Positions 31,974 through 49,435 of a stretch of DNA of 64,000 bases are shown here, one piece after another; the first letter of the stretch is position 1, and each line of letters opens with the position of its first letter. The position numbers and the translations under genes were made by a program. Source of the DNA: Balanoglossus misakiensis. Taxonomy: Eukaryota > Animalia > Hemichordata. A model generated the notes under the pieces. The model was not told the DNA's origin. It saw nothing but the letters and a program-made list of their open reading frames with translations, and searched no databases. The stretch is taken from NCBI GenBank assembly GCA_040954595.2, contig CM082576.2, forward strand, positions 12,713,129-12,777,128, in the 5' to 3' direction.

Positions 31974-34900
31974 ATGTCGATGGCACTCCCACCGTGCCAG
32001 ATTTGTAACGAATCATCGTCCGGCTACCACTGTGGTGCTTATACGTGTGAAGCTTGCAAGGTAATATTTCAAGAAAATGTCTGTTTATACAGAAAATATG
32101 ACCAGGCACAAGTCAACCTCTCGTGACATATATAACTTTTAGAAAAGAACAGTAGATAAATCATAAATATTAATACATTTTATGGTAATTTTGTTTTGAA
32201 AGTAATATTGTATAATCCTAACTTTCGGAAGTAATATATCTGTCTGTTAACCGTAGACAATGTAGACAGAACTCTAGTTTCTATTACACCACACTTTTTA
32301 AATCTTTTTAGTTATCATGATTTGACCCATTTAAAAATGTCATGCTTTTGATTCACCAAAATAATACTATATAGGGATAATTAAAATATACTAGCTAGTA
32401 TGTGTTCAGTTTGTCCAAAATCTAGGACAAGATTTATCATGATTTAACCTCAACATAATTTGTTATTTCCTGACTATACTACATCATGTTGATGTAATGA
32501 TAAAGTGTATGGTGGAATTTATATTTGAGTCACTAGCGCAAACCACTTTTCTGTGGACAGTGGTTCTACAAATTAGGAATGTAAACATTCTATAATATGG
32601 CAGCACTGGAGATGAAGTGTAACAAACACATTGTTTGTAAATAACTAGTTACCATGGAGATGTATGACCACATCCTGTTATGTAACAGGTGACACAAGAG
32701 GAGGGTCAAACAAAACAAAAACAAATACCAGAAATTCAGCTAGCATTATGCTCCCAAGCTATATTGGCACCATTTCAATGCAGTATTTCCCAGAAAATGA
32801 TGGTGAAAGATCGAATTCGATTAAAATGAGATGTAGGGTACAGCAGTCTTTCTGTGTATTCTTATACTGTACTACATAAGTAAAAGACCTAAACGTACCC
32901 TACATCTGATTTTAATCAGTTGGTTTGAGAAATGTTCTCCATAGGCTTTACCTATTCCCATGAATATATATCTGTATAGTAATAGATGCCATTTTGCTTT
33001 GGGGAGGCTATCGAACTGAAATGGTGCCCCGTATAGTTGTAGTACAGAAGTGCTACCACAAAGAAGTAGAAGTGGAATTGAATGAGAGGAAGTTATTTAC
33101 AAAGAATCACACAAAGATCACCATGGAATTTGAAGTTTATGCAGAATTTGACTATTCGGCTTTCGTTTTGCCTACAGAATACAAGAAGTTCCATGAATAT
33201 AGAAAACCACACTGTTGCGTTCGTTTCTGTATCAAACAATTTTCTCCCAACAATAAAGTGCACTTACTCATTCCACATCAAAATTATGGGTTACAAACAC
33301 ACGGCTGGATTGGACTGGTCTAGTCTCTACTTTCCTGTTAAGACTGTCTCTTGCCGCAAGTGCCTGTCTGGAAGTTTGTTGTTTTCGTACGAAAATAAAC
33401 CATAAAGTTTTAGCTGTGTTTGAATGGTATTATCCGTACCATTGTTGCCTTGGAAAAACAGCAAGTCACCCCATCATGAAGAGCATGCCCAAACTCTCCC
33501 CATACACTTGTGCAGTGGTGAGAGAGTTTGGGCAGACTACAACACGTACACGTAGAATCAATGGGGTAGTGTTTCAGTCCTATATCCTGCATTGGAATTT
33601 CGAAACATAAGACCGGTAGCCAAGTAAAACAGTCGAGTTGAGTGCAAATCTCTTCATGAGAATCCCAGTTTATCGAGAAGTGTAGGTTTATAAATCAAAC
33701 AAATGTGGAAGTAGAAAATAAGGTGACATCATTATTAAAACTGAATGAATATGCTCCAAAATGTCATCCTTCTTGTGGACTGAACTTTCAAAAAAGATGT
33801 AAAACTAAAAGTGTAATTTCTCATTTCTTTTTCACTTTCTTATTTGTTCATGTAAGAACTATCACCTGCGAAAACACCAAGCTGGCCAAAGCCCAGCACA
33901 AAGGATACATGTATTATGTAACTCGAGTTGAAGAGCAGAGCAAACAAGTCTTTGATGCTAGACTTTAGGAGTGTTATTATATGGGACATACCTGTGTTTT
34001 GATAAGTAACTCCGAAACCAACCAACATGATTATTGGCAACCCTCATCATCGTTGCCAGTACCGGATTTTGGACTCATTTTGACATCAAACGGTCGTGCC
34101 ATGAATTATTCGCTAGAGTTTCAGACATACATGTACACAGCTGCACAAATGAAATGCAGCATTCCTTCGTGACCATGAACTGGAGAATTGTGGAAATTAT
34201 TAGAAATCATACATTTTTAAGATTGATATAGTGAGTTTCTGACCCGGATGTGGGAACTGGTACATAGCAAGATTGTGGACCGTTTTTTTTTCCATCATAT
34301 TTTATGCAATGAGCCGAAACCTCCCCTGTGGCAGTTGAGGAAGTAAACATGTTTAGTGAGTCATCATGCAGTCTAGGTGTGACTCTTCAGTCAGCCTAAT
34401 TGAGATGTAAAAAAAAACTTGTTAAAGTTCTCTGGATATTTTGGGGGTTTATTTCACCGTTGTTTCCCAACGTCATATGGGTGACATCATCATCACGTGG
34501 TTGATGACTGAACATTCACGGTTGTTACTGGTGTAATTTATCGTCATCTTTAAACTGATGTACATTATACAGGGTCCTCTGTTTCGTTGGCAACTATTTT
34601 TGATTCTTTGAGGTTGTCCCGGTCCGGTCTTGGTTTCCCTCTTGTACATGTAGGGTACATGTATCAATGACCAAACTGAAAGACCATGGTAGACTCATAT
34701 ACTCTGTACCTGAACATACACAAAACAATGGCAATTTATAACCATCATGGCCGATGTTCGTATTTAATCCTAACCAGTGTGCCAAATGGAGGCAAAGTCG
34801 GTAACTTTTGATATCATTTTGGATATGTGTGAAAAATTATTACCAGTGAGTTTGTTGAGTCAGTGGTGTGTCATATGGGCTAAGCTGCTTAGAGGGCAGA

Positions 34901-48200: not shown

Positions 48201-49435
48201 ATGATCCAACGTGGCATCTGCCAGGTGACCTTGACCGTGCTGGCAGAGGACAAGATCAACACGGGGAGAATCTTCAAGTGGTATTTAGAGGGTGACGAGG
48301 AACTTCAGCTGCTGGCGAGGGAATTCATGCCGTTTAATCTGATGTCCGATCGGGCGGACACCGTGGCCGAAGCGTTCAAAGCGGCCGATCTGGATCATAC
48401 CGAGACCGGCTTCTTAACTGCCCTCCATGTAGTGGCTGCTGGTGAGTTTGTCGTCTGTGACTGTGTCACATTTAGGCCCACAGTTCGTTCTTTAATGATG
48501 GATTTTTTACATAAATATGCCATTCTTGTTTTAATAATACCAGCTGATCGTTTAACCTAGCTGGAGATCAAACTTTGCCACATGTCAAACCTCTTTGTGT
48601 TCATGTGATATGATATACATGTAAATGCCAATGTTAGTACACGGTTCCTGCACCACATGCAACAGCGCCCTCACGTGGCAAACAATGCAACAATGTTAAA
48701 TGGAAAAACAAATGTTGTTTTTACATATCATAAAGACTCGACATTTCACATGAATGGCGATGTATATTTATGTCTTCATAGATTGGCCAAACTTGAAGGA
48801 ACCAGAGAGAGTTGCTGATCTCCAAGTTGCACTTGAAGAAGCACTGGCAAGATACGTCTTAGGTAAGCTGTCCACCAACAACAATGTGTGCTTCTGATTT
48901 TGGTTTTATAACATTCTCAGGCCGAAACCCCAATATAGAAGGATAAATTTTGGCAGGTTTATACCAGAAAGTCAATTGACATTATTGACTACTGATGATA
49001 CTGTAAAACATGTTATTTTCGCAAGCAATAAATTTTCGCGAAATACAATGGAGGTAAAATAATGTGAAAATAAAAAGTTGCGTAAATTTTTTTTCGGAGA
49101 TAGAGGTTCAACTTTGCCATTGAAAACAGTGGGATTTGGTCCAAACCACGATGGTAAATGAGTTGAAGAAATCCATGTGATGTTCGTTTCTTGCAGTGCG
49201 CGACTTCGGCACGGGCAGCAGTCGATACAACACCATCTTGAAACTGAAGATGTTCCTGAGACTGAAGGAGAAGGAACACCACGCCGCCGTGATGCAGTGG
49301 AGGAAGACGCATCCGGATCTCAAGTTCCCGGCTCTGTGGACGGAAGTCCACGAAATTGTACTCAACGATTGCGAAGAAGCACAGAATGATCGGGAGCCAA
49401 TATCACACATCATCAAGAAAGAAAAAGAAAGCTAA
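31974..49435 (+). CDS. Nuclear receptor with two tandem DNA-binding domains and one ligand-binding domain (2DBD-NR), ~668 aa
   Basis: Exons 31974-32060 ([29 protein letters not shown]), 38758-38917 (RFFLRST...[34 protein letters not shown]), 43280-43398 ([40 protein letters not shown]), 45411-45558 (GFFRRSVQE...[33 protein letters not shown]), 45798-46576 (S/P-rich hinge; alternative donor 46588), 47537-47654, 48166-48441 ([24 protein letters not shown] signature), 48782-48862, 49197-49435 ([10 protein letters not shown]-2-like). Total 2007 nt, all phases compatible, in-frame stop upstream of the ATG. Confidence 0.93.
32819..32917. repeat. Degenerate copy of the palindromic element at 12948-13067
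   Basis: gattaaaatgagatgtagggtac ... gtaccctacatctgattttaatc inverted arms. Confidence 0.7.
36850..37062. repeat. Degenerate (CA)n/(CACATG)n low-complexity tract
   Basis: Directly visible in intron 1 of the 2DBD-NR. Confidence 0.8.
42234..42323. repeat. (ATC)n microsatellite with ACC interruptions
   Basis: Directly visible; explains the poly-I and poly-D ORFs. Confidence 0.95.
43488..43672. mobile_element. ~180-bp MITE with TTAA-type TSD and AGG...CCT termini (Kolobok-like)
   Basis: ttga|AGGTATACAGTCACC ... GGTGACCGTATACCT|ttaa (15-bp TIR, 1 mismatch). Confidence 0.7.

What the first reader, a model, noticed from the sequence alone, without database searches (positions are those of the whole stretch)
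31974..49435. Nuclear receptor with two tandem DNA-binding domains (2DBD-NR), invisible in the ORF track
Seen: four separate small exons assemble into two complete C4 zinc-finger DBDs (P-boxes CEACKR and CEGCKG), joined by a 21-aa linker ([21 protein letters not shown]), followed by a GRIP-box-like SIQMGRQS, a long S/P-rich hinge and a full LBD. There is essentially no A/B domain (7 aa). Established: DBD-DBD-hinge-LBD receptors were described in Schistosoma mansoni (first P-box CEACKK, second CEGCKG) and are absent from vertebrates; their response elements and ligands are poorly understood. Inference: this is a member of that rare class with a variant first P-box (CEACKR), potentially able to bind two half-sites as a monomer.
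Basis: partly seen in the sequence, partly recalled or inferred. Interest (0 to 1): 0.85.

Follow-up and report, generated by a model that had tools for sequence, protein, structure and literature searches.

The report
Acorn-worm receptor with two DNA-binding domains
This is an intact nine-exon gene, likely from an acorn worm, for a nuclear receptor with two DNA-binding domains in a row; it belongs to a known invertebrate subfamily, but its first DNA-reading helix carries an arginine shared only with other acorn worms, so it likely reads a slightly different DNA site.

Summary
Observation confirmed. Nine GT-AG exons (31974-49435, +) give one 668-aa frame: 7-aa leader, DBD1 (P-box EACKR), 21-aa linker, DBD2 (EGCKG), G-box, S/P-rich hinge, LBD. 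It is 73% identical to Ptychodera flava XP_070577102, misnamed 'ROR-gamma-like'. A newer Saccoglossus model shares both P-boxes and the exon 2-3 join. Trees place it in group A of the known 2DBD-NR subfamily (97/94), so the class is not new; the scan met it before in a sea urchin. What I did not find in print: hemichordates and EACKR are absent from the 2023 catalogue and its five supplements. EACKR occurs only in this acorn-worm clade, while 78 other first P-boxes in hand read EACKK. P. flava models show four 2DBD-NR genes covering both groups A and B. Likely mechanism: an LBD homodimer whose tethered DBDs read a compound site. The monomer idea is untested, and flatworm data favour dimers. 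No RNA evidence was available for the window itself.

The parts
31974..32060 (+). Exon 1: ATG, 7-aa A/B leader, first zinc finger of DBD1 up to the Lys of the P-box (aa 1-29)
   Evidence: Pfam zf-C4 2-24/70, E 2.1e-6
38758..38917 (+). Exon 2: Arg of P-box EACKR, second finger of DBD1 (D-box C-X6-C), start of the linker (aa 30-82)
   Evidence: Pfam zf-C4 26-70/70, E 1.7e-12; 96% identical to P. flava
43280..43398 (+). Exon 3: rest of the 21-aa linker and first finger of DBD2 (aa 83-122)
   Evidence: Pfam zf-C4 2-24/70, E 6.1e-8
45411..45558 (+). Exon 4: Gly of P-box EGCKG and second finger of DBD2 (aa 123-171)
   Evidence: Pfam zf-C4 25-69/70, E 1.1e-14
45798..46576 (+). Exon 5: G-box-like motif, Ser/Pro-rich hinge (24% S, 19% P), first LBD helix (aa 172-431)
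   Evidence: hinge predicted disordered in the orthologue model
47537..47654 (+). Exon 6: LBD helix 3 and first half of the Ti signature (aa 432-470)
   Evidence: (95% to P. flava)
48166..48441 (+). Exon 7: LBD core, second half of Ti, class marker E50 (E550) (aa 471-562)
   Evidence: (78% to P. flava, E 1.8e-37)
48782..48862 (+). Exon 8: LBD helix 9 region (aa 563-589); Trp564 at the class II R62 position
49197..49435 (+). Exon 9: dimer helices with R599 (class I RK93), AF-2 core at 636-641, short charged tail, stop
31701..31973 (+). G+C- and CpG-richer stretch before the ATG, possible promoter or 5' UTR (weak)
   Evidence: GC 0.53 and CpG o/e 0.98 for 31701-32000 against 0.73 for the window; some neighbouring bins are as high

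Best explanation
This gene encodes a 668-residue nuclear receptor with two tandem zinc-finger DNA-binding domains, a hinge and a ligand-binding domain, and it likely acts as a transcription factor that dimerises through the ligand-binding domain while each chain's two tethered domains likely read a compound DNA site. Shown: exon structure, domain order, P-boxes, orthology with P. flava and Saccoglossus models, place in 2DBD-NR group A (about 0.95). Inferred: DBD2 (EGCKG plus G-box) would read an AGGTCA-type half-site with a 5' flank, as Rev-erb and ROR do (recalled). DBD1 (EACKR) would read a neighbouring variant half-site at a spacing set by the conserved linker, the Arg shifting specificity from that of the EACKK paralogues. 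The LBD would form homodimers rather than RXR heterodimers. With almost no A/B domain, activation would rest on the AF-2 helix, possibly gated by a lipid.
For: Open 9-exon frame and two zf-C4 domains. Orthologue 72.7% identical over 704 columns, all nine exons matched by tblastn in order. Trees: 2DBD clade 100/99, group A 97/94, EACKR clade 100/100 on a long stem of 0.63. DBD1 is as conserved as DBD2 (68/72 and 63/68 to P. flava; 55/72 and 51/68 to Saccoglossus), and the linker is conserved (20/21, 14/21) while the hinge is not (98/188, 34/188): both domains and their spacing are under selection. The orthologue model has pLDDT mostly above 90 in both DBDs and most of the LBD, with a helical C-terminal AF-2; LBD matches are LXR, RAR, FXR and PPAR. 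Class I markers E50 and RK93 are present, and KR55 and class II R62 absent, by the numbering of S5 of PMC10497141, as that paper reports for the subfamily. Homodimers without RXR binding are reported for Sm2DBD-alpha and Eg2DBD-alpha1 (cited).
Against: No DNA site is known for any 2DBD-NR in what I read, and Sm2DBD-alpha DBDs bound no direct, everted or palindromic AGGTCA repeat of spacing 1-6. Lys to Arg is conservative and may not change specificity. The dimer data come from distant flatworm paralogues, and the Saccoglossus orthologue has Arg at the class II R62 position. The G-box begins with Gln instead of the consensus Arg, which may weaken minor-groove binding. The relative placing of the domains is not predicted (pTM 0.50). 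The fold is of the P. flava protein, not of the window's own.
Confidence: 0.6

Rival explanations
1. The receptor binds as a monomer: DBD1 and DBD2 form a dimer within one chain, so no partner is needed.
For: Two intact DBDs with a conserved 21-aa tether; a G-box as in monomer-binding receptors; the class I salt-bridge residue KR55 is missing.
Against: Flatworm members homodimerise through the LBD without DNA; E50 and RK93 are kept.
Confidence: 0.2
2. Only DBD2 reads bases. DBD1 is a backbone-gripping or protein-binding module, and the Lys-to-Arg change is a neutral mark of one paralogue.
For: The change is conservative; DBD1 has an extra residue in its D-box in the window and P. flava; isolated Sm DBD1 bound no AGGTCA repeat.
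Against: The DBD1 recognition helix is invariant in three acorn worms and reads EACKK in 78 other proteins in hand; the negative EMSA applied to DBD2 as well.
Confidence: 0.15
3. The two-DBD form is not the main product: splicing gives single-DBD receptors, or DBD1 is a separate short gene.
For: Skipping exons 2+3 is in frame (575 aa, hybrid P-box EACKG), as is skipping exons 3+4 (579 aa, DBD1 only). A Glandiceps talaboti model of the sister paralogue has one DBD with EACKG. The old Saccoglossus model lacks DBD1.
Against: Both P. flava isoforms and the newer Saccoglossus model carry both DBDs with the same join. No LBD-like segment lies between exons 2 and 3 among 2813 stop-to-stop segments. 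The linker is conserved. The odd models may be annotation errors.
Confidence: 0.05

Closest known systems
Ptychodera flava XP_070577102.1 / XP_070577101.1 (RefSeq, named 'ROR-gamma-like') and Saccoglossus kowalevskii XP_077865727.1 (named 'vitamin D3 receptor-like')
   Same: Orthologues (100/100): same domain order, P-boxes EACKR and EGCKG, 6-10 aa leader, 21-aa linker in P. flava; 72.7% identity to P. flava.
   Different: Database models with wrong names, not described as 2DBD-NRs in the papers I found. Saccoglossus keeps the usual five-residue D-box, the Arg-led G-box and the His five places after it; the window and P. flava have lost these.
2DBD-NR group A (Wu and LoVerde 2023, PMC10497141), e.g. 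Branchiostoma Bf2DBD-NRA, Sm2DBD-alpha/beta/gamma, Cg2DBD-gamma
   Same: [quoted passage not shown] Shares with amphioxus the residues just after DBD1.
   Different: First P-box EACKR, not EACKK; G-box starts with Gln; D-box of DBD1 has six residues; leader of only 7 aa; phylum not in the catalogue; only 33% identity to amphioxus.
2DBD-NR group B (echinoderm EACKS-EGCKG; lophotrochozoan LPCKS-EGCKK)
   Same: Same layout and subfamily.
   Different: Separate clade (95/91), other P-boxes and G-box. P. flava has its own B gene, XP_070577170.1, with EACKI.
NR1 receptors (RAR, ROR/HR3, TR, LXR, Rev-erb)
   Same: DBD2 P-box EGCKG; best solved relatives by sequence (RAR-beta 5uan) and by fold (LXR, RAR, FXR).
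   Different: One DBD only; they lie outside the 2DBD clade in all my trees. No solved structure with two tandem DBDs appeared among the 60 shown of 328 hits.

Membership tests
2DBD-NR subfamily | Two complete tandem C4 DBDs | tested here: met
   Pfam zf-C4 on exons 1-4; two stretches in the orthologues
2DBD-NR subfamily | One C-terminal LBD with Ti signature and AF-2 core | tested here: met
   Ti at 465-484 (Thr and Met at two variable positions) and AF-2 at 636-641; Hormone_recep and LBD fold shown on the P. flava orthologue, not on the window's single exons
2DBD-NR subfamily | Common origin: DBD1 with first DBDs, DBD2 with second DBDs, apart from single-DBD NR1 receptors | tested here: met
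   DBD1 clade 98/94, DBD2 clade 82/84; joined tree 100/99. Outgroups were RAR, TR and HR3 only.
2DBD-NR subfamily | Linker of 17-22 aa between the DBDs | tested here: met
   21 aa; range from PMC10497141
2DBD-NR subfamily | One transcript joining both DBDs and the LBD | tested here: inconclusive
   Same joins in models of two other species, whose RNA support I could not see; no reads could be laid on the window
2DBD-NR subfamily | Homodimer, no RXR heterodimer (class I markers E50, RK93; no KR55; no R62) | tested here: inconclusive
   Markers fit (E550, R599, T555, W564); binding itself needs an experiment
2DBD-NR group A | Falls in the group A clade (the paper names its groups by phylogeny) | tested here: met
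   97/94 in the DBD1+DBD2+LBD tree of 40 rows; the DBD-only tree of 38 rows left this open
2DBD-NR group A | P-P module EACKK-EGCKG | tested here: not met
   First P-box is EACKR; S1 gives EACKK for all group A rows. Filed as a variant inside the clade, not as a canonical member.
2DBD-NR group A | G-box RXGRQ(P/S) with His five residues later | tested here: not met
   First residue Gln, fifth residue Tyr; Arg leads in 80 of 85 EACKK proteins in hand and in Saccoglossus
2DBD-NR group B | Group B clade and P-P module LPCKS-EGCKK or EACKS-EGCKG | tested here: not met
NR1F (ROR/HR3), the database name of the orthologue | Single DBD grouping with HR3/ROR | tested here: not met
   Two DBDs; HR3 rows form a separate clade

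The most novel reading that the evidence does not exclude
Acorn worms are the one deuterostome group that keeps both ancient 2DBD-NR groups (four genes on one P. flava chromosome). This gene is an old, fast-diverged copy whose EACKR helix reads a half-site no other nuclear receptor reads, and its matching introns let it switch by exon skipping between a two-domain receptor and single-domain receptors, one with a hybrid EACKG helix.
Probability: 0.15. Interest if true: 0.65.

Novelty: new variant of a known kind. Interest (0 to 1): 0.4.

Why it matters
The DNA site and ligand of two-DBD receptors are still unknown, although flatworm members are tied to reproduction (as summarised in PMC10497141). 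This gene fills the hemichordate gap in the 2023 catalogue and corrects database names. It shows that P. flava models cover both groups A and B, where echinoderms are reported with only B and amphioxus with only A. It also offers a natural pair of paralogues in one genome, EACKR against EACKK, in a compact protein with almost no A/B domain: a convenient test of whether and how the first DBD reads DNA. The architecture itself has been known since 2006-2007, so the gain is incremental.

Tried and rejected
No whole genome is held for this window, so paralogues outside it could not be counted. Sequencing runs: none was listed for 45400-49500, so no reads were laid; this is no evidence on expression. 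Metagenome scan with the P. flava protein: 94 pattern matches, 0 confirmed. Homodimer prediction for the orthologue LBD (residues 440-692, two copies): no answer, median score 0.31 against a mark of 0.32, controls not folded. A third protein search with exon 2 found no further EACKR protein (3 hits among 676 candidates). My first exon 2 start (38759) gave a frameshift and was corrected to 38758. Amphioxus as source, my first guess, was dropped: 33% identity against 73% for P. flava. The names ROR-gamma-like, RAR-gamma-like and VDR-like were rejected by trees. Loss of DBD1 in Saccoglossus was rejected once the newer model appeared. Whether all hemichordate group A genes form one clade is open: LBD tree 99/92, joined tree unresolved, AU p 0.365. 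Two vertebrate models with repeated DBD pieces (naked mole rat RAR-alpha P0044; sturgeon P0047, flagged as contaminant) repeat RAR sequence and were not counted as 2DBD-NRs. Paper searches gave nothing further on this gene.

Full report
Observation. I read 31000-51000, located the finger motifs and built the gene model by coordinates. Nine exons on the + strand, all with GT-AG borders, give 2007 nt and 668 aa with one terminal stop. Pfam zf-C4 hits exons 1 to 4 as two half-pairs, that is two complete DBDs. The window has two first-finger and two second-finger patterns, and 0 of 100 shuffles have either. The leader cannot be extended by an upstream exon: an in-frame stop lies 9 codons before the ATG with no AG between. 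Exons 5-9 did not hit Pfam one by one. Profiles built from homologues (the LBD seed included the window protein) found LBD segments only in exons 5-9 and no other convincing DBD or LBD piece among 2813 stop-to-stop segments.

What it is. Exon 7 found a single relative, Ptychodera flava XP_070577102.1, named 'ROR-gamma-like'. It has two zf-C4 stretches and a Hormone_recep domain, is 72.7% identical to the window protein and matches all nine exons in order. The source is therefore likely an acorn worm nearer to Ptychodera than to Saccoglossus; notes on other pieces of this genome say the same (unchecked). The old Saccoglossus model XP_006817041.1 starts at the exon 3 linker and has one DBD. The newer XP_077865727.1 has both DBDs, the P-box EACKR and a 6-aa leader. 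An AlphaFold model of the P. flava protein (46 sequences, mean pLDDT 70, pTM 0.50) has confident DBDs and LBD and a disordered hinge, and its best fold matches are LXR, PPAR, HNF4, RAR and FXR structures.

Trees. With separate DBDs (69 rows, 68 columns; 11 near-duplicate rotifer, bivalve and unnamed proteins left out), DBD1 lies in the clade of all 27 first DBDs (98/94) and DBD2 among second DBDs (82/84). The LBD tree (46 rows; 9 dropped as near-duplicates, 2 without LBD) joins the window, P. flava and Saccoglossus at 100/100 and all hemichordate group A proteins at 99/92. The joined tree (40 chosen rows, 401 columns, rooted on RAR, TR and HR3) gives the 2DBD clade 100/99, group A 97/94 with the window inside, group B 95/91, and the EACKR clade 100/100 on a stem of 0.63. 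The DBD-only joined tree did not resolve group A, and one hemichordate clade is neither shown nor rejected (AU p 0.365). Outgroups were limited to three NR1 groups.

What differs from the described family. Among 255 proteins in hand, 131 had two or more first fingers. Their first P-box was EACKK in 78, LPCKS in 22, EACKS in 5 and EACKR in 3 (the window and two P. flava isoforms); the Saccoglossus model came later. The set is redundant and search-biased. EACKR thus spans two acorn-worm families, an old split (several hundred million years, recalled). The six-residue D-box of DBD1, the Gln-led G-box and the loss of the His after it are shared only by the window and P. flava. P. flava models show two further group A genes with EACKK (XP_070577168, XP_070577173-175) and a group B gene with EACKI (XP_070577170), all listed with the same longest contig of 41.86 Mb; three have neighbouring accession numbers, which suggests a cluster that I could not map.

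Literature. PMC10497141 (Wu and LoVerde 2023): I read parts 1-4 of 7 of the text, S1 and S2 whole, part 1 of 5 of S5, and searched all five supplements (colours marking residues are not visible). It lists 2DBD-NRs in ten phyla, with only B in echinoderms and only A in amphioxus. 'Hemichord', 'Saccoglossus' and 'Ptychodera' occur 0 times in its text, and EACKR 0 times in text and supplements. PMC1810520 (passages) gives the LBD homodimer, no RXR binding and a negative EMSA on AGGTCA repeats. PMC11589774 (passages) puts a Saccoglossus protein in the snail 2DBD orthogroup but saw no second DBD in it, which fits the truncated model. PMC7827873 and PMC4388693 (passages) add nothing on hemichordates. 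PMC6844482 was seen as a search listing only. Searches for CEACKR (0 papers), for hemichordate with two DBDs (only the snail paper) and searches found no description. Subscription journals and bioRxiv supplements are not covered, so a mention in a hemichordate genome paper may have been missed.

How it likely works. Shown: DBD1 is as conserved as DBD2, and the linker is far more conserved than the hinge, so both domains and their spacing matter. The LBD keeps Ti, an AF-2 core with Glu639, and the class I markers E50 and RK93, without KR55 or the class II R62; Saccoglossus has Arg at R62. Inferred: DBD2 with its G-box reads an AGGTCA-type half-site with a 5' flank, DBD1 reads an adjacent variant half-site, the LBD makes homodimers, and AF-2 carries activation because the A/B domain is nearly absent. 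A need for flanks and a non-AGGTCA second half-site would explain the negative flatworm EMSA. That the sixth P-box residue faces the major groove is recalled knowledge of ER and GR, and Lys to Arg may be neutral. Rivals are a monomer with an internal DBD pair (0.2), a non-reading DBD1 (0.15) and single-DBD products (0.05). Both DBDs are cut by a phase-0 intron at the same P-box codon, so skipping exons 2+3 or 3+4 stays in frame, and a Glandiceps model of the sister paralogue shows the hybrid EACKG form. This may be an annotation error or a real isoform.

Verdict. A real gene and a member of the known 2DBD-NR subfamily, inside group A by tree but failing that group's P-box and G-box consensus, hence a new variant of a known kind. 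The unreported phylum, the conserved EACKR paralogue and the four-gene set in P. flava merit 0.4.

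Noticed in passing
P0153, P0004, P0259, P0001 (P. flava models): P. flava has four 2DBD-NR genes, three of group A and one of group B with a further unlisted P-box, EACKI; same longest contig and neighbouring accession numbers suggest a cluster.
   Followed up: partly
P0128 (Glandiceps talaboti XP_077990093.1): Model in the EACKK paralogue clade with a single hybrid DBD (EACKG), the form that skipping the two middle DBD exons would give.
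   Followed up: partly
window 46576-47537: P. flava isoform X1 has 9 extra residues at this junction; the window has in-frame alternative donors at 46588 and 46615 and an acceptor at 47507.
   Followed up: partly
window 16447-16941 +: Single ORF matching Pfam UPF0669 / C6orf120, E 2.3e-39.
   Followed up: partly
window 4611-4850 +: Exon matching ryanodine receptor TM4-6, E 1.3e-8: part of a RyR-like gene.
   Followed up: partly
window 22738-24405 -: 556-codon open frame with a long coiled-coil-like C-terminal half; only a weak Pfam hit below cut-off.
   Followed up: no
window 13643-14104 -: Open frame resembling the C-terminus of a NUDT14-like Nudix hydrolase (recalled); no Pfam hit.
   Followed up: no
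window 63012-63235 +: 36-base tandem repeat, 6.2 copies, inside an open frame at 62847-63650; it encodes repeated tyrosine motifs of the YxNx and YxxV kind, like docking sites in a receptor tail (interpretation recalled).
   Followed up: no
P0135, P0124, P0163, P0166: Database proteins with three to six receptor-type DBDs, among them an Argonauta protein with four DBDs followed by an enzyme-like domain.
   Followed up: no
P0025, P0029, P0048, P0017, P0122: Group A-type 2DBD-NRs (EACKK-EGCKG) from acanthocephalans, a bryozoan and a chiton, groups not named in the parts of the 2023 catalogue that I read, and from the nemertean Lineus.
   Followed up: no
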